Shown piece by piece: positions 33,702 to 47,556 of a DNA stretch of 64,000 bases (positions within the stretch are counted from its first letter, which is position 1; each line of letters starts with the position of its first letter). The position numbers and the translations under genes are program-made. The notes below the pieces were generated by a model. That model had not been told where the DNA came from, did no database searches, and saw nothing but the letters and a program-made list of their open reading frames with translations. The DNA lies in the NCBI GenBank assembly GCA_965200955.1, contig OZ241742.1, positions 2,951,072-3,015,071 on the forward strand, written 5' to 3'. Source of the stretch: Rhodothermales bacterium (GTDB lineage Bacteria; Bacteroidota; Rhodothermia; Rhodothermales; Bin80).

Positions 33702-36005
33702 TTAAGATGTTAGTGACTGGAGACCGGATGCCTCAGAAATAAATTGCTGAAGTGTACTCCCCGAATTATCAACAAGTTTGTCTATTTCAGACAGAGAAAG
33801 CTTTAAACGATATTTAGGGTTGGAATGATCGACAGATTCCACAAGATGTATCTTTTCTAATTTCGGGAGAATTTTGTTTATAAAATGGCTTGACTGACTA
33901 CCTAATCGAAGAGTAATGTCATTGCGATTTATTGTGGTTGACCGATTGAACATCCGAATAAAACGCAATGTTGTTTTCACATCAGGATCAATGTTAAATT
34001 CCGTGGGTGATTCAAGGACCTCATCCTGAGGTGTTTTAAACCTGATATCAATACCTTTATTCCTTAAGACCGCACGCACATGAGTTGGATTGAAAATTTT
34101 TTGGTGATCTTCTTCCTCACCATTGCCAACCGATACTGAATCAAAAATACAATTTTCGAAAACTGTGCCGTCAAATCTAGGTCTTGAACGATCATCAAAT
34201 ATGAGCTCTGTAAAACGACAGTCATGGAACTGACTGTCAATAAAGATGGAATCATCTAAACTTGTTGAGCCAAACAGAGAGTCATGTACGCTAAGCCCAC
34301 GAATCTCGCGTTGCTGTAGAGAGTTCGGGGGGAAATTCGTTTCAGAGATTTTATATGGATTTGTTGCATGTCGTAATAATTCTAGTATAAGTGTTCCACA
34401 ATTTTCTCTGAAGTAAGATACCCTCGGCTTTTCTTGAGATAAATGTTCTAGGTCTGTGAGAATGTTATCAATTGTGATTGTGTCTTGATTATTTGTCAGA
34501 AAACGGGTTGCTTCAAGGATGACGGACTTGCTCAGAGCATTAGCATTTAAAATTAACCTTGCGTCTGATTTTTCAGATTTAATCAGTGACCGACCAAGAG
34601 CTTGTCCTAAATAAAATTCCAGAAAATCCTCATGATCAAAGCGAATTCTAGATTGTCGCGTAGGGCCCTGCGATTTATCCTCCCGAAGGAGTGAATGATC
34701 TTTGATTCGTCTACATATCTGTCTTTCCACATTAGAACTGAGATTATTCTCGGCTGTGAAAAACTCTATAACCAGTTCTATAATATCAAATCGAAGGGAA
34801 TCTACTGCATTGACCCACATTTCAGAAGCAATCTGTGAGAGCAATTTGTGATGTTGGTCAATTGTAAGGAGCGGAGAGTGATCAATCCCTGAACGATCAA
34901 TCCATTTATCTTGTGCCTCACGCTTAACTATGACTTCAATAAACTCGAAAAAGTAATCAACCTGCGTCTGACCAAGTTTTTCCAAGAATTTTTCTAAATC
35001 ATCATCTTCTTTCGCTACATCAATGAGTCTACGAACGAGTACGGCTCTTGTGAGCACTGGATGTTTTGAACTGTTGAGCCGTTTTTTTACGCGTTTGTAA
35101 AGCAGATCTGGGTTGGGTACACCGCGAAGTGATGCATATTTTGAAAAAACTTGACGATCCCATCTGTTGAGAACGAATCTCTGAATTTTTACATCATGAT
35201 CAGATCCAATAGATTCAAGTAATTTTGCTTGAGAATTTAGCGATTGATCGAAATATGCTTTTCGAGCTGCAATGAGTAGCGTACCAGATGAGGACAACTG
35301 ATCTACAAGATGCCCAAGAGCAGAGACTGCTTCAGTAGAACTCACATCTACAAGCACTTCTTCAAACCCATCAAATGCTGGAATAATTGCATTCATTTTT
35401 ATGAGTTCAATAAATGAATCATAGTATAAGTATGGAAATCGTAGCCGATTCATCAAAGAGGCAATCACAACATCATCAAAGCGCAGGAAAGATCTACCAC
35501 CAAGAGCAACTGGGAGAATTAATGTACTGGTTTTTTTGTTCTTGAATGCAAGGGCCTGTTCAATAGAAATTTTTTCAATCAAGGATGTTTTACCTTCTCC
35601 CGCATCAGAAGTGAGAAAATTAATTAATGTCATACCAGCGTGAAAATTCGTCAAACGCTTTCGCAAATGAGCAATAGAATCAATTGATTGATCTGTTTTC
35701 ACAGGCTCATTTTTCCAATCAAGTAGGTTAACATTTGGGGACACATAATTTTCCGGGGGTTGAATATAGTCAATAATACGCTGTGCAAGCATATCTATCT
35801 TCGCCAAATATGAGAATATCCAAGATCTTGCATAGCTCTCAACTCCATTATGAATGACAATCACACCATGCTGAGGATCGTTTTTGATCTCAGCTTCAAC
35901 TGGTTTACCTCGAATAAACATGAGTAGGTTGCCTTCGTCAACAACCATCTCGTTTTCTTGGTCTGTAAATGTGGTAACAATACGTTTGAAATCTTGGAAT
36001 TGCAT
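33702..36005 (-). CDS. NACHT-like (STAND) P-loop NTPase with pentapeptide repeats and a possible C-terminal winged-helix domain; N-terminal ~130 aa unknown
   Basis: Walker A is FLTSDAGEGKTSL (about 35583-35620). The NACHT-type Walker B is IIPAFDGFEEVLV, followed by LLIAARKAYF. Six consecutive xxFxx pentads read SLFGS TSLDD SIFID SQFHD CRFTE LIFDD. The gene starts 11 nt after the NYN gene stop. Confidence 0.6.
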   Translation of the reverse strand: MQFQDFKRIVTTFTDQENEMVVDEGNLLMFIRGKPVEAEIKNDPQHGVIVIHNGVESYARSWIFSYLAKIDMLAQRIIDYIQPPENYVSPNVNLLDWKNEPVKTDQSIDSIAHLRKRLTNFHAGMTLINFLTSDAGEGKTSLIEKISIEQALAFKNKKTSTLILPVALGGRSFLRFDDVVIASLMNRLRFPYLYYDSFIELIKMNAIIPAFDGFEEVLVDVSSTEAVSALGHLVDQLSSSGTLLIAARKAYFDQSLNSQAKLLESIGSDHDVKIQRFVLNRWDRQVFSKYASLRGVPNPDLLYKRVKKRLNSSKHPVLTRAVLVRRLIDVAKEDDDLEKFLEKLGQTQVDYFFEFIEVIVKREAQDKWIDRSGIDHSPLLTIDQHHKLLSQIASEMWVNAVDSLRFDIIELVIEFFTAENNLSSNVERQICRRIKDHSLLREDKSQGPTRQSRIRFDHEDFLEFYLGQALGRSLIKSEKSDARLILNANALSKSVILEATRFLTNNQDTITIDNILTDLEHLSQEKPRVSYFRENCGTLILELLRHATNPYKISETNFPPNSLQQREIRGLSVHDSLFGSTSLDDSIFIDSQFHDCRFTELIFDDRSRPRFDGTVFENCIFDSVSVGNGEEEDHQKIFNPTHVRAVLRNKGIDIRFKTPQDEVLESPTEFNIDPDVKTTLRFIRMFNRSTTINRNDITLRLGSQSSHFINKILPKLEKIHLVESVDHSNPKYRLKLSLSEIDKLVDNSGSTLQQFISEASGLQSLTS

Positions 36006-36016
36006 CTGACTGATAT

Positions 36017-36719
36017 TTACAATCTTTTTAGGGAATAGTGCTCACTACGAAGTTTTCTGAAAGGATTGCCTCGCCTCCTAATAGATTTGGGGATGAAGTG
36101 GATTAATTCAACATGATTGATAAGTGCATATCGAATGCCAGGCCACATATCATCATCTCCAGATACCAAAACAACAGGTTCTTTTGTAAACATGGACAAA
36201 TGAACTAAATCTGTAACGATCATTGAATCCACAAGTTTCTGTTCAGTCCTGTAAAAAGTGTCATCTGGTGTTACACTACATTGATCATGACCACAGATTT
36301 TTCTACGAAAAAAATGAATGTACCCCTGAGAGATAGCATTGACCCTTATCAACGCAGTGTGCGAAAGGAAAACTTTCTAATCTTAGAGGTGGCAGGTTTG
36401 ATCGAGTTCTAAATGTATTTGGAAAATGATTTCCTTCATCACATATTAGAGATGTAGCCAATTCGGGCCGATTAATTTTTATTTTTTGACCTAATACTTG
36501 AACCACTCGCGGAAAACTCCTCTTTATTTGACCAGATAACTTTGATGCTAAGGGTGTCAACTTATATCCTCTATATAACCATCCTCCATACAATCTGCAC
36601 TGTGAAACTTGTGAATCAGAAATTGAGACTGGAGATTTTTCCAGTATTTGTTCTATAATGTTAATGAGTCTCATTTCTTTTAGTCTTCCCAAGTTATCAT
36701 AGTCAATCAGAATGGTCAT
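36017..36719 (-). pseudogene. NYN/LabA-like (PIN-fold) nuclease with Cys4 zinc-ribbon-like insert, split by a +1 frameshift in an A7/T7 run
   Basis: MTILIDYDNL and RLYGGW are NYN N-terminal motifs. HCVDKGQC...SFF then changes frame at 36308-36314 to RRKICGHDQC...EQKLVDSMIVTDL...VVLVSGDDDMWPGIRYA (NYN C-terminal motifs). Removing one A restores a 233-aa ORF. Confidence 0.6.
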
Positions 36720-36783
36720 GGATCAAGTAATCTATCAATGAATGTGTATGGTGTGAAGCAATTATATTATTTCTCTGCTTATT

Positions 36784-37794
36784 TCAAACTTCAACAAAAT
36801 CTCGTCTAACAGCATGAGCAACTTGCTGAAGCTGAACAAATAAGTCAAAAAACTGATCAAGCCTCAGAACCTGCAATCCCCTTTCAGATGCACTGAGCAA
36901 GTCATCATGTCCATCTATGATCGCACCAGCCCCAACGGCCCCAGATGACAATGGAACGACGTAATCCCGAATGCCTACTCCTTGAGAGGGATCTACGATC
37001 ACGGGGAGATGACTTTTGGCTTTCGCAACCGAAACCCCAGAAAGATCAAGAGTATGCCGTGTGGCAACCTCAAAGGTACGAATCCCTCTCTCACACAAAA
37101 TGGCTTGCGAATTACCTGATTTCATGATGTACTCTCCTGACTTGATTCACTCTTGTATAGTCGTAGCCAAACCATATTAAAGTAACTCTGTCCGATAATT
37201 TCTACCAATGCACGCAAGAACTCAAAATTCCGATATAACGAGTTCCCACTTTAAAGTACTCGCATCATTACCAAATTGATCCATGGACTCAGTGGAATCA
37301 ACTTCTAAGATCAGTTTAACTCACATTCAGTAGCTACCTGACACTCCATTTCAACGCTTCCTCTGGATCTGTTGATACTCATGGAACGATGTGTGAGGCT
37401 TGACCATACTTGCACGAATCACAGATACACCTAATAAGACTATCTGAGTAAAACTATCTTTTGAAATTACTCTGTACATTCAATACTTGATAATGCTCCC
37501 ATCAAAATGACTATATTCCCCCACCCCAGTCTGAAATCCATCCACATCAATAATGGATGAATTGGAGCGGCCAGCACGACTGGCTAGTTTTTAGAGTTCG
37601 GTAACGCGTTGCACCTCAGCAACACCACGAAAATTGTTAATGATTCTGTAATCAAATCCAGGCCAAACCATATTAATCCTTAGTACGTTTGGCTGACTCC
37701 ACTGGAACAATGAATCAAACCCAAAGGCATTTAAGTTGGTGATAACGGCTTCAACTTCTTCTTCCGAAGCATGATTTTTCACGATAACAACCAT
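36784..37794 (-). pseudogene. aroF: type I-beta DAHP synthase with N-terminal ferredoxin-like regulatory domain, heavily decayed but still co-linear
   Basis: The N-terminal MVVIVKNHASEEEVEAV... resembles the Thermotoga-type regulatory domain. The middle reads KLASRAGRSNSSIIDVDGFQTGVGEYS...RASMVKPHTSFHEYQ (cf. GGAYKPRTSPYSFQG) with several stops. The C-terminal AILCERGIRTFEVATRHTLDLSGVSVAKAKSHLPVIVDPSQ is preceded by ATTIQE-TGA-IKSGEYI. Confidence 0.8.
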
Positions 37795-37842
37795 GGCAGC
37801 TACGTTTGATTGCGGAGATGTTAGGGTGTCAGTAGTTTCACG

Positions 37843-38583: not shown

Positions 38584-39971
38584 CTTTGCATCCAGTGTAC
38601 AAAATCTCCCAGAAGTTGGTATTTAGAAGGCTTTTGCATCACATTCCATTGTAAGCCTTCAAGTTTTAAATCGTCTGTTACAGATTTTTGTGGGTGTCGG
38701 ATCCCTTTCACATCCGTACTAAACGACAGTGTCCTCAGAGAATCTCCTTCAAACATCATACGAATTTCATCCGAAGACGCTTCAATCGCGCCATCTGGAA
38801 GCCCCTCTTCGTCTGCATTGAAGTAGATAGCCTCTGCATTTGGGCCGATTATGATCACTCGCACCGAATCGTGCATCGTTCTACTCACTAATGTATGTCC
38901 CTTCACCTGATTGATTCGTTGAATCAAGCTGTCTTCCTCTGCTACAAATGCATTTCCCCAAATCATCAAAGAATCGACGTTCCCGTCATGGATAATGACC
39001 TTCATTGTATCTCCAGACAGTTGAGTTTGATTCATCCATACAAATGGGAGCCCATAGAGCCATATCTCTTCATTTGATCCATGACCTAAACGTTGATAGG
39101 CTACCGAATCAGCTGTTGCAGAAAGAGAGCTGTTCCAGATTCGTACATTTCTTGTTGCATCAAGCCGAGATGTATTCATGCGATCCTGAAGATGCATCAC
39201 ATCTGCACGAATGATTAGCGTATCAACGGAGAGAGAATCATATTCTATGTTGATGAAGATTGGATCCCCCTCAACAATCGCCAGTGAATCATTCGCATTA
39301 TACTCAAATCGTTCTCCTGCAATCCAGAGCGAGTCATTGAGGGTGGTTCTGAGATAGCGAACGGACCCTTGGGCTAATGAGATAGAATGCTCGCGATAAT
39401 GCAGGAGTGAATCAGCAAAGAGCCGAGCATCCTCTGACTCCATCATCACATCTCCCGACATATCCGCAATCTTCGTATCTGTCCAATAGAATCCTGAATC
39501 TCCAACCAATGTGGTCAATGAATCAATCAGCACAAGCCCTTCTGGAAACTCTACTCGTCGTTCTTCAACATAATAGACTCCTTTTGGGGAAGTGGTTACA
39601 ACCTCGCCATCGGTCAGTCGGACATTCCCTACTGCCCGTCCAATTTCCAGATCTTCATTATAATCTAGAGCATCTGCCTCAAGGGTATCTCCTTGATCAA
39701 TCAATACAGAATTGCCCGTAAATGATGTCTGACTCCGAGTTACATTACGAACGGCTTGATCAGAGGTGATTTCGGTAGATCCGTAGTTGACGCGCACATC
39801 TCCGTTGATGAATTGCAGAAATTCATCTTGATTTTGCTGACCAACCAATGAGTCACCCTGAACGAATACCGAGTCCGTATCAGCATATGCATAATACCCC
39901 GTCACTGTCTCTGGAGGATTTCCCTTCGGCATCAGCAATACAACAATCAACCATAATGTAACAGCTTTCAT
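38571..39971 (-). CDS. periplasmic OstA/LptA-family protein (multi-domain, 466 aa)
   Basis: Has a signal peptide and repeated OstA-like beta-jellyroll patterns (GDV..., ADSL.Y..., GN...). It is sandwiched with overlaps between the lptC-like gene and lptB. Confidence 0.5.
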   Translation of the reverse strand: MKAVTLWLIVVLLMPKGNPPETVTGYYAYADTDSVFVQGDSLVGQQNQDEFLQFINGDVRVNYGSTEITSDQAVRNVTRSQTSFTGNSVLIDQGDTLEADALDYNEDLEIGRAVGNVRLTDGEVVTTSPKGVYYVEERRVEFPEGLVLIDSLTTLVGDSGFYWTDTKIADMSGDVMMESEDARLFADSLLHYREHSISLAQGSVRYLRTTLNDSLWIAGERFEYNANDSLAIVEGDPIFINIEYDSLSVDTLIIRADVMHLQDRMNTSRLDATRNVRIWNSSLSATADSVAYQRLGHGSNEEIWLYGLPFVWMNQTQLSGDTMKVIIHDGNVDSLMIWGNAFVAEEDSLIQRINQVKGHTLVSRTMHDSVRVIIIGPNAEAIYFNADEEGLPDGAIEASSDEIRMMFEGDSLRTLSFSTDVKGIRHPQKSVTDDLKLEGLQWNVMQKPSKYQLLGDFVHWMQRWEN

Positions 39972-40657
39972 GAATCAGGAATGATCTTTGCCTGAAACCT
40001 GCCAATCTGATACGCACCCAAATCTTCGGTTGCCTCAAGTCCAACGCCCGAAACAATTTCATCAGGTGTACGAATCGTCACAAAGCTGTGCGTCCGTAAT
40101 CGATGATCACTTTCCCACCACTCAAGCCAATCCGTTGTGAGCATCCGCTGATCCGTCGTTTCAATTCGAACATTGCCCTCAGCAGTAAAATACTCTTCCT
40201 TTTCGTGATAAGTTACACGATCTGCCTCCAAGAATGCTGATTGTACACCAGTGGAATCAAAAATTTCAATCTCTACTTTCCGATCAACTCCATAAAGATA
40301 CTGAATCGTAGAATCCCCCCGCCCTATCCACTGGACATGATCTGCAGAAATACGTACTCTTGGAAAACTCTCATCTACATCCGAAGCTGCCTGCGACAGG
40401 ACAATTTGGACATTCCAACTTTCTTTGGAGGGACTGTCAAAAGACGATCCATACACGCCTGATACATCCTGCTGCGTACATGATGTTAGAAGTACGGCAA
40501 AAAGGATCAAGAGTATCAGACTCGTGGAAAGACGAACCGATTGCAATGTACAGTCATCTTGTGTGAACCACTTGATAAAGGAAGATATTGACAAGAAATC
40601 AACGGATGAGAAATGAAAAGGCGGAAATTCATCAAACTCTCTTTTAATCAGAACCAT
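39968..40657 (-). CDS. lptC: LptC-like LPS export periplasmic protein (lipobox LLTSC)
   Basis: The C-terminal half (EADRVTYHEKEEYFTAEGNVRIET...LTTDWLEWWESDHRLRTHSFVTIRTPDEIVSGVGLEA) follows the LptC pattern. It overlaps the OstA gene by 4 nt. The start is uncertain. Confidence 0.5.
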   Translation of the reverse strand: MVLIKREFDEFPPFHFSSVDFLSISSFIKWFTQDDCTLQSVRLSTSLILLILFAVLLTSCTQQDVSGVYGSSFDSPSKESWNVQIVLSQAASDVDESFPRVRISADHVQWIGRGDSTIQYLYGVDRKVEIEIFDSTGVQSAFLEADRVTYHEKEEYFTAEGNVRIETTDQRMLTTDWLEWWESDHRLRTHSFVTIRTPDEIVSGVGLEATEDLGAYQIGRFQAKIIPDS

Positions 40658-42715: not shown

Positions 42716-43162
42716 CTTACAAGTGAATGAATTGACCGCATTTTACGATATTGGGCACTCTTTGTAACAAGCTTAACCGAAGAAATTGAATTTGATGCTC
42801 ATCTTAATCCATCATTGCCACTCATAGAATCGGGGGAGGAAACATTCCAAATCACTTTTTACGACAGAACGAATCCATTTTCATCATGAATATCTGATTG
42901 ATGTCAAGAAAGCAAAACCATCCTACAAAGAACCAAAAAATCTAAACCTTGAAAATAAAATCCGTAAAAATAATCGCCCATCGCCCACTCATTGAACGAT
43001 CCACACAAAACCATAGGATCTATAAATTTAGATCATTCTTTTCTTGACCCTGATAAGTGTTGTAACGATGGAGTCCATACCTACCCATCGTGTCTTATTC
43101 ATGGACTGGAGTGGAACTCGTTCAACGTATGAAGTAACAGATCTTTATACCTACGTCTATCA

Positions 43163-46100
43163 TCAAATACTCGTAAAATGACCGACATAAACATCTGCAG
43201 AACCACTGTCCTGAGATGTAGCCATCATCCGATATACATACGATCCTGACGGAAGCTTCAGATCATCTAGTTCTAATTCAAGACCTGTTCCTGCACTCAT
43301 GCTGACTGGAGACTTTTCATACACACGCCGGCCCGTAATGTCTAACACCTCTACCTGTATTTGAGCGGATCTCGGCAGATCAAACACCAACTGGGTTGAA
43401 TGCACAAATGGGTATGGGTAATTGGAGTGCACCACAAATTCTTCCACCAAATGTGCTTGCTCTTGCGTATTGACTGGAGAAACCACTTCAATGGTACAGT
43501 TCAAGCTATCCTGCCCACCTTTGGTATCCACTGCCATATAGGTAAACGGCCCGGGCGGACTAATGACCATGGGGGTACCACTGATAGTCCTCGCTGAAAC
43601 ATCAAACATCAACCCTAATGGAAGATCAAAAAGATTCAGTGTGTATTGGATTGGAGTCCTCCCACCGGTCACTTCAGGTAAAATAAGCGGAGGAATCGCC
43701 TGCCCTCTTGAATAGGATTGATGATCAATGCTCTCACTAAAGGATAGTGCGTACACTTCAAGATTGAACTTCAGACTGGCCACCATACCCGTAGCATCCT
43801 CTACTGCCCATGTATACAAGGTCTCTGGGGTGATGTTTGAAGGAGTTCCGCTGATCGTACGAGTAGACTCATTTAAAGTTAATCCCTTGGGAAGTGTTGG
43901 TGTCAACGTATAGTCATAAGGCATCACTCCCCCATTTGGTGCAGGTAGACTCCACTCTGAAAGTACAATTCCTACAGGATAGAATTGATTTTCTATAGTA
44001 GTGGCTAAATGATACGACTGCATTCGTCGTTGCATTCCTGATCGGTGATGAAACACTTGCCCCTTCAGAATTGATGGCACTGACCCGATAGTAATGAGTC
44101 GTATTCGGCGGAAGATTTGTATGATCGTAGGAGGTTACCGCAGATCTGGTATTGGATTCTATATCCATCCATCCAGAGATTCCATCAAAAAAACCTTCAA
44201 TCCGGTAACCGGTGATCTCTGCTCCTCCATCAGCAAGAGGTGCAATCCACGAAAGACTGATCCTCGTCGTTCCAGTAGCCGTCGCCGTTAACCCGGTGGG
44301 TGCATCAGGAACCGTGACGATATCGTCGGACTCTGTAGTAGCATTGACCACATCTGAAACTGCCCCTGCACCTGTAGCGTTGAGGGGACTGACACGATAG
44401 TGGCGAACGGTATTCGGCCGCAAAGGACTGTCTGAATATGAAGTGATCGTAGAACCCGTATTGGACTCCAAATCCGTCCATCCAAACGTTCCCGAGGGAG
44501 ACACTTCAATCCACTAACCTGTTATTGGTGCATCTCCATAATCGGATGGAGCATTCCAGGAAAGATTGATCTATTCACTCCCCGAAGCGATTGCTGATAC
44601 ATCTGTTGGCACACTTGGAAGTGCTTCCGATAATGGTTCAGTCGTTGCACTCACCACATTAGAAGAGGCACCTGAACCCTCAGAGTTAACAGCACTGACA
44701 CGATAGTAACGAGTCGTATTTAGAGAAAGATTTGTCTCAGAATATCTGGTCGCCCTAGAACCCGTGTCATCCACTAAATCCGTCCATCTAGATGATCCAT
44801 CTGGAGACACCTCAATCCAATAACCGGTAATCGCCGTGCCTCCATCATCAGATGGTTCATCCCATGATAGATCAATCGTCCTACTCCCAGAAGCTGTCGC
44901 AGTTAATCCAGTGGGAGCATCAGGAATCGTAGTGGCTGGTACTATGGTCGCTTGACTACACTGGAAGCATCACCAGTGCCCACAGAATTGATGGCACTCA
45001 CTCGGTAGTAACGAGTGGTATTTGGCGAAAGATTCGTGTCAGAATTGGTGGTGGTTTTTGAACCCGTGTCCGCCACTATATTCGTCCACTCAGAAGATCC
45101 ATTTGGAGACCCTTCTATCCGATATCCGCGAATCTCTGCTCCTCCATCATCAGATGGGGAGCTCCATGAAAGAACAATGGTCGTACTGCCCGAAGCGGTC
45201 TCAGATACTTGGATAGGTGCACTTGGAAGGGCTTCCGTGCTGGACCCAGTGGTTGCAGAAACGACATTTGAAGAGACACCCGAACCAGCCGTGTTGATTG
45301 CACTGACACGATAGTGGTGAGTCGTATTCGGAGAAAGATTGGTATGAGAGTATCCAGTGACACCTGAATTCGTATTGGACTCCAAATCGATACACCCTGT
45401 CCTTACATTAGAAGAAACTTCAATCTGGTAACCGGTAATGGATGCACCTCCGTTATTGGATGGTGCGTTCCACGATAGGTTGATGGTCGTACTTCCCGAA
45501 GGTGCAGCAGATAGTGAAATGGGTGCGTCTGGGACGGTGACCGTAACTGCGGGAGCAGTGGTTGCACTGACCACATTTGATGATGTACCCAAACCAGCGG
45601 AATTGATAGCCCGTACACGATAGTGACGGGTCGTGTTCGGAGAGAGATTACGGTGGGAGTATTGGGTGGCATCTGAATCCGCATTGGACACTAAATCCTT
45701 CCACCCAGATGTTCCATTTGGAGATACTTCAATCCTGGTAGCCTGTAATGGATGCGCCTCCATTATCAGATGGTGCCCCCATGAAAGATCAACCGTTCTA
45801 CTCCCAGAAGCCGTAGCGGTTAATCCAGTGGGTGCATCAGGGACGCTTACCGTCTCTTCATCCGCCGGATCACTCCTCACATATACGGACAGGGAAGGTC
45901 TTCCTGTACCAATCGAATTGATCGCGCTCACCCTATAGTATAGAAATGTTGAGGGCTTTAAATTCTTGTGAGTATAACCAGTGGTATCTGAACGAGTGTC
46001 CTGTTCCACAGCATACCAACCAGATCCAGATTTTAAGGCTTCAATCTGATAGGCAGTGATCGTTGCTCCCCCAGTATTTGATGGCGCTTGCCAAGAAAGA

Positions 46101-47556
46101 TCAATCATCGTACTACTCGAGGCGGATGTTTTTAGGTTAGTCGGTGCATCAGGAAGGGAATAAGTAGTCGCTTTGACTACCTTTGATTTTGTACCTGCTC
46201 CCTTAAGTTTTGATAACGCTAACACGGTAGTAATGAGTTGACCCTAGTTTCAGATTACTGTGAGTGTATGTAGTCTCAGTGTTTTCGGTATTGACATCCA
46301 GTGGTGACCACACTAATTATAGCGTGAGGTTTCTATCCTGTATCCGGTGATTTCCGCTCCCCCATCATCTGATGGTGGATTCCAAGAAAGTTTGATCTAA
46401 TTACCACTGATGGGAGTTGCAGACAGGTCGGTAGGAACTGCTGGAGCCATAAGCGGCCGAGAAGTCGTTGCCTTCGCGATATTGGATGCTTCACCAGTAC
46501 CAATACACTCACTGCACTTACGCGATAGTAACGGGTCACTCCAGGAGAAAGAAACTTATCGGAATACGTCGTAGAACTAGAAAATCCTCTTTGAATCTCC
46601 CAGTCTGATCTTCCATTTGGAGAAACATCAATTCTGTATCCATTAATTTCAACACCTCCATTATCGGTCGGTGCACTCCACGAAAGATTAATCGTATTTT
46701 CACCTGATGCCTGAGCCTTCAATCTCGTCGTCGCATCTGGAATATTAAACGTTCTGAATGAGCCTGATTCAGACCATGATGAATGAAAGCCACCAGGACC
46801 CAAAGATTGGGTACGAAACCGAAATACCGTTACCGGTGTACTTCAAGGAACAGTATAGAATGTTTGTAAGAGATCCACCAGTAGAAATTCTTGACCATGA
46901 TGAACTACCTGTTTTAACTTCAAGATGAATCCCTCTACTTGGTATTTGAGCATCTGGAAAGCTCCATTTAATCAATAAAGTATAGACATCAATAGCACGT
47001 GAGTGCAACGTAATGTTCAAGATGATCGATTGATGAATTTGTAACAAAGTTTCATCAGATTCAAAATAAAATGGATGTCCCATATTGCCCTACTCTACCA
47101 TGTATGCAATCGGAGAAGAAAAAACTGATGGAGCAGAGCACTGTTCTACTGATGTGACTCCTGACAAACCTCCATCATAATGCACAACCATGCGATGGGA
47201 ATCTTCATACTCATGTTCATCATCGTCATTTGAAAAAACTTCTTGTACTATCAATTTCTCTGTGAAAATTCTATGCTGAGGATGAAGGATTATGTGATCC
47301 ACAGACTCAGCACTCTGGCAGTAGTACCCATCCTTTGTAAGGATGATGTGTTTTGAGAAGTCGCAGATGATCTTAAATCATCGGATATCTCTGGTTGATC
47401 CTCAGAAAAAATATACCGCTTCAACGTAGGTTCAGGATGTTCCTAAACATGACTGTTCTGGGAGTAGACCATCAAATATGTACCAACGAAATCATACTCT
47501 GTCGTAATAACTTCACCGAAAAGAGATGATAGGACAAATAAAAAAACATCAGCATA
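43163..47556 (-). pseudogene. giant T9SS surface protein (signal peptide, ~9-10 FN3 repeats, 2 Ig-like He_PIG repeats, Por sorting domain) broken into at least 7 pieces
   Basis: Six ORF-track pieces, plus unlisted frames, all read the same repeat: PDAPTGLTATASGSxTIxLSWxAPSxxGGAxITGYxIEVSPxGxSxWxDL...NLSPNTTxxYRVSAINSxG. In-frame TAGs lie at 44571-44573 and 44514-44516. Frameshifts lie at about 44945, 44030, 46230-46330, 46480 and 46800. The C-terminus is NYPYPFVHSTQLVFDLP...GSYVYRM. Confidence 0.75.
44080..46800 (-). repeat. tandem array of diverged ~0.3-kb (about 100-104 codon) FN3-encoding repeats
   Basis: LSW motifs recur at aa 43, 147 and 250 of the 427-aa piece. The copies are clearly related at nucleotide level but not identical. 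Confidence 0.8.

What the first reader, a model, noticed from the sequence alone, without database searches (positions are those of the whole stretch)
36303..36352. The nuclease effector is split only by a +1 shift in an A7/T7 homopolymer
The two NYN half-ORFs overlap by 50 nt. The only lesion is at the run of seven A (+ strand 36308-36314); with six A the gene reads ...GVHSFFRRKICGHDQC... as one 233-aa protein. Unlike the other broken genes here, it has no extra stops or further shifts. The lesion is therefore either very recent, a slipped-strand ON/OFF switch on a toxic effector, or a read error.
Basis: seen in the sequence. Interest (0 to 1): 0.55.

Follow-up and report, generated by a model that had tools for sequence, protein, structure and literature searches.

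The report
Inherited frameshift kills NYN effector gene
A one-base insertion in a run of T's has broken the putative nuclease gene of a two-gene NLR-like immune cassette in a probable sponge-associated bacterium; the same lesion is in independent assemblies of a sister strain, so it is a real, inherited, ordinary gene-killing mutation, not a sequencing error or a demonstrated on/off switch.

Summary
Two minus-strand ORFs (36303-36719 and 36017-36352) are halves of one 233-aa gene, split only by a seventh A at + 36308-36314 (T7 on the coding strand). Removing one base restores a protein 95% identical to intact 233-aa homologues.

The lesion is not a read error. Two short-contig metagenome assemblies of a 99.3%-identical sister strain (L009, L010) carry the same T7. 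They also carry a nonsense codon (R32*) in the adjacent 767-aa gene. Nine other conspecific contigs, in three haplotypes, have T6 and an intact gene. A sister species has T5. Tract length therefore tracks haplotype, and the tract is short and not conserved. I found no frameshift-stimulating signals.

The gene is a divergent NYN-like protein with a four-cysteine insert. Its partner has a NACHT (NLR-like) fold with pentapeptide repeats. The pair is adjacent in 46 of 48 species loci.

In those loci the NYN gene is broken with the partner intact 10 times, by stop codons, IS insertions and truncations. The reverse occurs 4 times (p about 2e-4 given gene sizes).

Verdict: a recent, heritable pseudogenising slip, one case of recurrent loss of this effector. 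It is ordinary in kind and of modest interest.

The parts
36308..36314 (-). Frameshift site: T7 on the coding strand (A7 on +), within codons TCA TTT TTT TCG TAG. The ancestral state T6 encodes Phe136-Phe137.
   Evidence: T6 in L001-L008 and L015, T5 in L016, T7 in the window, L009 and L010.
36017..36719 (-). NYN-like gene, now a pseudogene; 233 aa when one T is removed. Invariant D6, D164, D188 and D190, plus a four-Cys insert (C122, C128, C142, C147).
36303..36719 (-). 5' fragment ORF (138 aa). It carries D6 and the first Cys pair and ends at a TAG one codon after the tract.
   Evidence: P0245 is this fragment, called on the 4,189,794-nt source contig.
36017..36307 (-). 3' part of the gene in the +1 frame. 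It carries the second Cys pair and D164, D188 and D190. The mechanical ORF extends to 36352.
33702..36005 (-). Partner gene, 767 aa, intact in the window. It has an N-terminal beta-rich domain, a NACHT-type STAND NTPase (Walker A GEGKTS, Walker B DGFEE), helical domains, pentapeptide repeats (about 550-640) and a C-terminal winged-helix-like part. It starts 11 nt after the NYN stop.
35910..35912 (-). Codon 32 of the partner gene. It is CGA (Arg) in the window and TGA (stop) in the T7-carrying sister strain L009/L010.

Best explanation
A genuine, heritable one-base expansion (T6 to T7) in the Phe-Phe codons pseudogenised the NYN-like gene. The most likely cause is replication slippage. This gene is the upstream member of a two-gene cassette: a NYN-like putative nuclease followed by a NACHT/pentapeptide-repeat STAND NTPase. 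The cassette is plausibly an NLR-like conflict or defence module, with the NACHT protein as sensor/switch and the NYN-like protein as effector. The shift separates catalytic Asp6 and the first Cys pair from Asp164, Asp188, Asp190 and the second Cys pair, so neither fragment should be active. The event happened once, recently, in one haplotype of a probably sponge-associated Rhodothermales-like population, and has been inherited since. In a sister strain the partner gene has since acquired a stop codon, so the cassette is decaying in this lineage. Shown: the lesion, its inheritance, its restriction to one haplotype, the second lesion in the partner gene, and the recurrent breakage of this gene elsewhere. 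Inferred: nuclease activity, sensor/effector roles, the slippage mechanism, and whether loss is favoured by toxicity or merely tolerated.
For: The frameshift is real and is the sole lesion. The same T7 is in L009 and L010, which are 99.2-99.3% identical to the window and contain no N. Nine conspecific contigs in three other haplotypes carry T6 and an intact 233-aa ORF. L009/L010 add R32* in the partner gene. Between haplotypes, dN/dS is 0.32-0.35 for the NYN gene and 0.19-0.20 for the partner. The 3' 429 nt are identical to haplotype B, so the gene was functional until recently. The active-site and Cys residues are split by the shift. The pair is conserved and adjacent in 46 of 48 species loci in several phyla. 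The partner has a NACHT fold (Foldseek, NLRC4 E = 7e-14) and pentapeptide repeats. The NYN gene is broken with the partner intact in 10 of 48 loci by varied lesions; the reverse occurs in 4 of 48; binomial p = 1.9e-4 against gene length.
Against: No read-level data could be inspected, so T6/T7 heterogeneity within one population is not excluded. L009 and L010 show identical differences from the window and may be two assemblies of one sample, so independent confirmation may rest on a single extra data set. The T7 tract could in principle revert, or be bypassed at low level by transcriptional slippage. The NYN assignment is sub-threshold for this protein (17.2 bits against a cut-off of 24.2), and the confident model found no PDB match. 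Neither protein matched any PADLOC model, so a defence function is inferred only.
Confidence: 0.8

Rival explanations
1. Phase-variable contingency switch: the T tract flips between T6 (ON) and T7 (OFF) at high frequency, letting the population toggle a toxic effector.
For: The lesion lies in a homopolymer and is the only defect, and restoring T6 gives back the exact ancestral protein. T6 and T7 alleles occur in metagenomes with adjacent BioSample numbers, SAMN13943200 and SAMN13943199. The gene is a putative toxic effector that is often lost.
Against: From general knowledge, a 6-7 nt A/T tract is shorter than tracts that phase-vary efficiently. It is one of 21 A/T runs of 7 nt or more, and its T6 ancestor one of 59 A6/T6 runs, in the window. 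Tract length is fully congruent with haplotype: T7 only in haplotype C, T6 in three others. The tract is T5 in the sister species and absent in distant orthologues. The T7 lineage has gone on to lose the partner gene. Other lineages lose the gene by stops, IS elements and deletions, not at a common tract.
Confidence: 0.07
2. Recoding: the T7 allele is still expressed at a low level through +1 ribosomal frameshifting or transcriptional slippage on U7, giving an attenuated dose of full-length effector.
For: A slip anywhere in the U7 run yields exactly the wild-type sequence ...SFFRRK. A zero-frame UAG lies one codon after the run. From general knowledge, transcriptional slippage can rescue frameshifts at poly(A/T) tracts in some endosymbionts.
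Against: The frameshifted configuration is not conserved; every other orthologue examined is in frame. The 83 nt downstream are less structured than shuffled controls (z = +1.65). The only Shine-Dalgarno-like AGGGG ends 8 nt before the run, not the roughly 3 nt used in prfB, and the stop is not in the A site of the slip codon (sequence; prfB rule from general knowledge). Seven residues is below the run length at which slippage is efficient (general knowledge). The partner gene is knocked out in the sister strain.
Confidence: 0.05
3. Assembly or read artefact: the true sequence is T6 and the extra base is a homopolymer consensus error in the 4.19-Mb source contig.
For: The source is a single 4,189,794-nt contig. 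That suggests a long-read assembly, where residual errors concentrate in homopolymers (general knowledge).
Against: The identical T7 is in two other assemblies of a different strain. Homopolymer lengths agree at 84 of 89 runs of 5 nt or more with L010, and only one of the five discordant runs is a length change. Housekeeping genes at 29.4-36.0 kb carry no frameshifting indel relative to haplotype B, L009 or L010.
Confidence: 0.03

Closest known systems
Bacterial NLR-related (bNACHT) anti-phage proteins (Kibby et al., bioRxiv 10.1101/2022.07.19.500537)
   Same: The partner protein has a NACHT-type STAND NTPase fold with Walker A GEGKTS and Walker B DGFEE. It has a C-terminal superstructure-forming repeat sensor, pentapeptide repeats, which is one of the sensor classes listed in that paper. 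Nucleases are among the effector domains described there.
   Different: [quoted passage not shown] Here the putative nuclease is a separate upstream gene in a tightly conserved pair. The Pfam NACHT model does not hit and PADLOC has no match. No phage-defence test exists for this family.
NTP-dependent conflict systems with PIN-type RNase effectors (Kaur, Burroughs, Iyer, Aravind, eLife 2020, PMC7159879)
   Same: That survey reports a PIN metal-dependent RNase fused to a Zn-binding domain as an effector, PIN combined with NACHT, and pentapeptide repeats as scaffolding or sensor modules. The present NYN-like (PIN-like) protein has a four-Cys insert and pairs with a NACHT-pentapeptide protein.
   Different: Those are mostly ternary vWA-MoxR systems or single polypeptides. 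I did not find this exact two-gene arrangement described. Here the Zn-binding element is inserted within the domain, not C-terminal.
NYN domain / LabA-like PIN-fold nucleases (Pfam PF01936)
   Same: 40 of 50 family members hit PF01936 (best E = 2e-7). The motifs resemble the NYN acidic motifs (from general knowledge): an N-terminal xIDYDN motif, and QKLVDS plus VSGDDD with invariant Asp.
   Different: The window protein scores below the gathering threshold. Only profile positions 71-119 of 145 align. A confident AF2 model (pLDDT 86.6) found no solved NYN/PIN structure by Foldseek. There is a family-specific four-Cys insert.
Homopolymer-slippage pseudogenes and phase-variable (contingency) loci (general knowledge, no paper read here)
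   Same: A one-base length change in a mononucleotide run inside a coding sequence switches the reading frame.
   Different: Contingency loci have long, conserved tracts whose length varies independently of the flanking haplotype. Here the tract is 6-7 nt, lineage-specific and congruent with haplotype. It therefore behaves like an ordinary slippage pseudogene.

Membership tests
NYN domain (PF01936, PIN-like nuclease) | Profile-HMM match at or above the Pfam gathering score | tested here: inconclusive
   The window protein scores 17.2 bits against a cut-off of 24.2, E = 0.0075. 40 of 50 family members match at E <= 0.01, best 2e-7.
NYN domain (PF01936, PIN-like nuclease) | Conserved acidic active-site residues on the N-terminal strand and in the C-terminal SxDxD-type motif | tested here: met
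   D6, D164, D188 and D190 are invariant in 50 sequences and all are retained in the window.
NYN domain (PF01936, PIN-like nuclease) | Fold similarity to a solved NYN/PIN structure | tested here: not met
   The AF2 model has pLDDT 86.6. Foldseek against PDB gave no hit with E < 0.4 and no NYN/PIN entry. A profile search of PDB sequences gave nothing relevant.
NYN domain (PF01936, PIN-like nuclease) | Metal-dependent nuclease activity | not testable with these tools
   Needs biochemistry.
NACHT-clade STAND NTPase (bacterial NLR-related) | P-loop Walker A, and Walker B of the hhhhDGxDE type | tested here: met
   G136-E-G-K-T140 and D212-G-F-E-E216 are invariant or nearly so in 32 homologues. That this pattern is NACHT-typical is from general knowledge.
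NACHT-clade STAND NTPase (bacterial NLR-related) | Fold similarity to NACHT NTPases | tested here: met
   The AF2 model has pLDDT 83.2. Foldseek hits are NLRC4 (7e-14), NOD2 (1e-11), NLRP9 and NLRP3, all with probability 1.0; 119 hits have E <= 0.001.
NACHT-clade STAND NTPase (bacterial NLR-related) | Match to sequence models (Pfam NACHT, PADLOC bNACHT/Avs models) | tested here: not met
   No NACHT hit at E <= 0.1 in Pfam. No PADLOC hit. NCBIfam gave only a weak pentapeptide-region hit to HalA.
NACHT-clade STAND NTPase (bacterial NLR-related) | C-terminal repeat-type sensor domain | tested here: met
   The profile hits pentapeptide-repeat proteins of PDB (McbG-like, 9.6e-5; 2bm4, 1.9e-4) over positions about 533-620. 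The model shows short beta-strands at 551-637.
NACHT-clade STAND NTPase (bacterial NLR-related) | Protection against phage or other invaders | not testable with these tools
   Context only: in L012-L014 the neighbours are a ResIII helicase-like gene and an AbiJ_NTD4 gene, and in L011 a DDE transposase.
Phase-variable contingency locus (mononucleotide tract) | Tract long enough for high-frequency slippage | tested here: not met
   The tract is T6/T7. The window alone has 21 A/T runs of 7 nt or more. The length threshold itself is from general knowledge.
Phase-variable contingency locus (mononucleotide tract) | Tract length varies among close relatives independently of the flanking haplotype | tested here: not met
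   T7 occurs only in haplotype C (window, L009, L010). T6 occurs in L001-L004, L005-L008 and L015.
Phase-variable contingency locus (mononucleotide tract) | Tract conserved across orthologues | tested here: not met
   L016 has TTTTTCC (T5). L011 and L012 have no run at this position.
Phase-variable contingency locus (mononucleotide tract) | Length heterogeneity among reads of one population | not testable with these tools
   No read data are available here.
Programmed +1 frameshift / transcriptional-slippage gene | Out-of-frame arrangement conserved in orthologues | tested here: not met
   All other full-length homologues are single ORFs.
Programmed +1 frameshift / transcriptional-slippage gene | Stimulatory signals (closely spaced Shine-Dalgarno-like element, A-site stop, downstream structure) | tested here: not met
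   The AGGGG ends 8 nt upstream of the run and the UAG is one codon beyond the slip codon. The downstream 83 nt fold no better than shuffles, z = +1.65.

The most novel reading that the evidence does not exclude
The T7 allele is not dead but is a reversible or leaky OFF state of a toxic NYN-like effector. It would revert by T7-to-T6 slippage, or be read through at low level by transcriptional or ribosomal slippage on U7. Silencing the effector while keeping the NACHT sensor would then be a recurrent, selected way for host-associated bacteria to park an NLR-like immune module without paying its autoimmune cost.
Probability: 0.07. Interest if true: 0.55.

Novelty: new member of a known kind. Interest (0 to 1): 0.27.

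Why it matters
The frameshift itself is an ordinary slippage pseudogene, and its main value is for annotation. The two half-ORFs should be merged and flagged as one pseudogene, and the lesion should not be 'corrected' as an assembly error. Two side results are of some use. First, the gene pair is a widespread, tightly linked cassette: a NYN-like protein plus a NACHT-pentapeptide protein. It occurs in Rhodothermales, Acidobacteriota, Binatia, Gemmatimonadota and other mostly uncultured lineages. It is absent from PADLOC and from Pfam NACHT models, so it is a candidate split-gene variant of bacterial NLR-like immunity worth testing. Second, the putative effector is broken much more often than its three-fold longer partner (10 against 4 of 48 species loci). 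That pattern is a testable hint that the effector is costly or dispensable while the sensor is retained.

Tried and rejected
- **Exact-product look-ups:** the 138-aa fragment, the window's 767-aa protein and P0118 were not on record. The source contig was traced only through cluster membership.
- **DNA pattern scans:** Genome contigs and metagenome contigs found nothing with either a variable-tract or a fixed pattern. Contig L002 is a JGI metagenome contig that contains both patterns, so those collections evidently do not hold these samples. The negatives say nothing about allele frequency.
- **Defence and family models:** PADLOC and NCBIfam gave no useful family for either protein.
- **Structure searches for the NYN-like protein:** Foldseek against PDB and the profile search of PDB sequences gave no meaningful match. 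The NYN label therefore rests on Pfam family-level hits and motifs.
- **Plasmids:** tblastn of the repaired protein against plasmids gave no match.
- **Second copy:** there is no second copy of the gene in the window.
- **Frameshift signals:** downstream RNA structure and the promoter/terminator scan (at shuffle level) showed nothing.
- **General homopolymer error problem in the window:** considered and rejected. Against L010, only one of 89 runs of 5 nt or more differs by an indel.

Full report
**1. The observation**

The + strand carries exactly seven A at 36308-36314. On the coding (minus) strand the sequence reads TCA TTT TTT TCG TAG. The upstream ORF (36303..36719, 138 aa) therefore ends ...GVHSFFS*. 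The downstream frame is open from 36352 to 36017. The 50-nt overlap is only a mechanical consequence of where the first TTG falls in that frame.

Removing one A gives a 233-aa protein reading ...GVHSFFRRKICGHDQC.... Adding one gives nothing. tblastn shows two collinear segments, residues 1-137 and 132-233, in different frames, and no other defect or second copy in the window.

The repaired protein has 117 homologues, most of about 230-240 aa. The best is 95% identical over the full length, E = 1e-148.

**2. The lesion is real**

- **Source.** The window comes from a 4,189,794-nt contig. The 138-aa fragment (P0245) and the partner protein (P0118) are recorded on it.
- **Intact relatives.** Syntenic contigs from other assemblies fall into haplotypes. 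L001-L004 (haplotype A) and L005-L008 (haplotype B) are 97-98% identical to the window. They carry T6 and an intact 233-aa gene, and the extra T is the only indel in the gene. L015, a fourth haplotype, also has T6.
- **Relatives sharing the lesion.** L009 (ENA ERZ23497193, SAMN13943199) and L010 (GCA_026709435.1, JAPOSY010000199.1) are 99.2-99.3% identical to the window. They carry the same T7 and contain no N.
- **Homopolymer agreement.** The window and L010 agree in length at 84 of 89 runs of 5 nt or more. Only one of the five discordant runs is an indel.
- **Flanking genes.** Housekeeping genes around the cassette show no frameshifting indels relative to haplotype B, L009 or L010.

A read or assembly error is therefore excluded for practical purposes. 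One caveat remains: L009 and L010 show identical differences from the window and may be two assemblies of one sample.

**3. Age and fate of the lesion**

- **Recent.** Codons 91-233 are identical to haplotype B apart from the extra T. Every invariant residue of the family is retained.
- **Functional until recently.** Between haplotypes, dN/dS is 0.32-0.35 for this gene and 0.19-0.20 for its partner.
- **Already inherited.** The window and L009/L010 differ elsewhere by about 0.7%.
- **Further decay.** In L009/L010 the adjacent gene has CGA to TGA at codon 32 (window 35912) and a T14A change. These are the only coding differences in the cassette.

**4. Tests for a switch or a recoding site**

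- **Tract length.** It is T5 (TTT TTC) in the sister species L016, where the flanking DAHP synthase is still intact. It is T6 in three conspecific haplotypes and T7 in one. There is no run at this position in distant orthologues L011 and L012.
- **Phylogenetic pattern.** Tract length is fully congruent with haplotype, as expected of a single mutational event.
- **Not unusual.** The tract is one of 21 A/T runs of 7 nt or more in the window.
- **No stimulatory signals.** The downstream 83 nt fold worse than shuffles (z = +1.65). The only Shine-Dalgarno-like element ends 8 nt upstream of the run, and the zero-frame stop is one codon beyond the slip codon.

Nothing supports programmed frameshifting or a contingency locus. 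Low-level reversion or slippage cannot be excluded without reads or expression data.

**5. What the gene and its neighbour are**

*The broken gene.*
- Its own Pfam NYN hit is sub-threshold (17.2 against 24.2 bits). However, 40 of 50 family members hit PF01936, best E = 2e-7.
- The alignment has invariant D6, D164, D188 and D190, and four conserved Cys (C122, C128, C142, C147) forming an insert.
- The shift falls between the two Cys pairs and separates D6 from the other acidic residues.
- A confident AF2 model (pLDDT 86.6) found no PDB match. I therefore call it NYN-like, not a proven NYN nuclease.

*The neighbour (33702..36005, 767 aa).*
- It starts 11 nt after the NYN stop.
- It has no Pfam, PADLOC or NCBIfam family.
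- Its AF2 model (pLDDT 83.2) matches NACHT NLR proteins strongly: NLRC4 E = 7e-14, plus NOD2 and NLRP3.
- It has Walker A GEGKTS and Walker B DGFEE, and its profile hits pentapeptide-repeat proteins.

*The pair.*
- The two genes are adjacent in 46 of 48 species-representative loci from Rhodothermales, Vicinamibacterales, Bryobacterales, Binatia, Longimicrobiales and others. They sit in unrelated genomic contexts.
- Within the species the cassette is a recombination mosaic. NYN codons 25-90 and the NACHT C-terminal half reach dS of 0.26-0.84 between haplotypes that are otherwise about 3% apart.
- This fits an NLR-like conflict module with a separate nuclease effector. Related architectures are described in bioRxiv 10.1101/2022.07.19.500537 and PMC7159879. 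The function itself is inferred.

**6. A wider pattern**

| State in the 48 species loci | Count |
|---|---|
| Both genes intact | 32 |
| NYN-like gene broken, partner full-length | 10 |
| Partner broken, NYN-like gene intact | 4 |
| Partner absent | 2 |

- **Lesions in the NYN-like gene.** Single stop codons occur in L024, L027 and L043. An ISL3 element is inserted in L044, an IS4-type element in L057, and an unidentified 1.24-kb insertion in L034. Truncations or frameshifts occur in L045, L050, L051 and L064.
- **Lesions in the partner.** It is broken in L019, L031 and L042, and possibly only divergent in L062.
- **Statistics.** Given gene lengths of 702 and 2304 nt, the excess has binomial p = 1.9e-4.
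- **Ascertainment.** The loci were found through NYN motifs, so complete NYN deletions are missed. This makes the bias conservative.
- **Reading.** The lesions are heterogeneous, which again argues for recurrent loss rather than a site-specific switch.

The window's T7 is one more instance of that loss.

**7. Verdict**

This is a real, recent, inherited frameshift pseudogene in the putative effector of an NLR-like two-gene cassette. It is ordinary in mechanism. Interest is modest. It comes mainly from the unannotated cassette and the effector-biased decay.

Noticed in passing
window 35910-35912 (minus strand); L010 about 9896; L009: The sister strain that shares the T7 also has a nonsense mutation (R32*, CGA to TGA) and a T14A change in the NACHT-like partner gene. 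The partner is intact in the window.
   Followed up: yes
L017-L064 (48 species-representative loci): The NYN-like gene is broken with the partner intact in 10 loci, by stops, IS insertions and truncations. The reverse occurs in 4 loci, although the partner is 3.3 times longer (binomial p = 1.9e-4).
   Followed up: partly
L044 5550-6833; L057 3717-4988; L034 5505-6746: Three independent insertions of about 1.25 kb interrupt the NYN-like gene at different codons. They are an ISL3 transposase element, an IS4-type (DDE_Tnp_1 + DUF4372) element, and an element encoding only a 126-aa repeat protein with no Pfam match.
   Followed up: partly
window 36450-36647 (NYN codons 25-90) and 33702-34655 (NACHT codons 451-767): The cassette is a recombination mosaic. 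These segments reach dS of 0.26-0.84 against some conspecific haplotypes, while neighbouring segments are identical. dN/dS stays below 0.4. L015 shares the window's NACHT C-terminus, but its NYN 3' part and NACHT N-terminus are highly diverged.
   Followed up: partly
window about 37126-37800 (minus strand): The DAHP synthase is a pseudogene (fragments of 113 and 67 aa) in every conspecific contig, but intact (339 aa) in sister species L016. It differs between haplotypes by four to five indels (37252, 37417, 37451-3, 37713), an older decayed gene that contrasts with the single-lesion NYN gene.
   Followed up: partly
window 43160-46810 (minus strand): The fn3-repeat surface-protein genes carry strain-specific frameshifts. 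There is an extra C at 44003 and a compensating pair at 45776 (G6 to G5) and 45734 (+G). These are private to the window relative to L010. Other indels (46505, 46316, 46205) differ among haplotypes. The internal repeats are about 67% identical.
   Followed up: no
window 36733-36744 and 41632: A 12-nt indel lies just upstream of the NYN ATG; it is absent in haplotype B. A 16-nt indel lies between two A-runs downstream of the semialdehyde dehydrogenase gene; that sequence is present in haplotype B.
   Followed up: no
L018 5001-10690; contigs of 4,148,270 and 4,076,850 nt (P0009/P0029, P0126/P0148): Some genomes carry two copies of the cassette. In L018 two divergent cassettes sit in tandem.
   Followed up: no
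repaired protein residues 118-150 (window about 36270-36368): Four conserved cysteines (CX5C...CX4C; three invariant, C147 in at least 90% of sequences) form an insert in the NYN-like domain, probably a zinc-binding element. The confident AF2 model of the whole protein has no detectable PDB neighbour.
   Followed up: partly
window 39968-40657 (minus strand), indel at 40544: A one-base difference near the 5' end of the 221/229-aa gene upstream of the OstA-like gene changes the predicted N-terminus between haplotypes. The window and L010 are called as 229 aa, the others as 221 or 196 aa.
   Followed up: no
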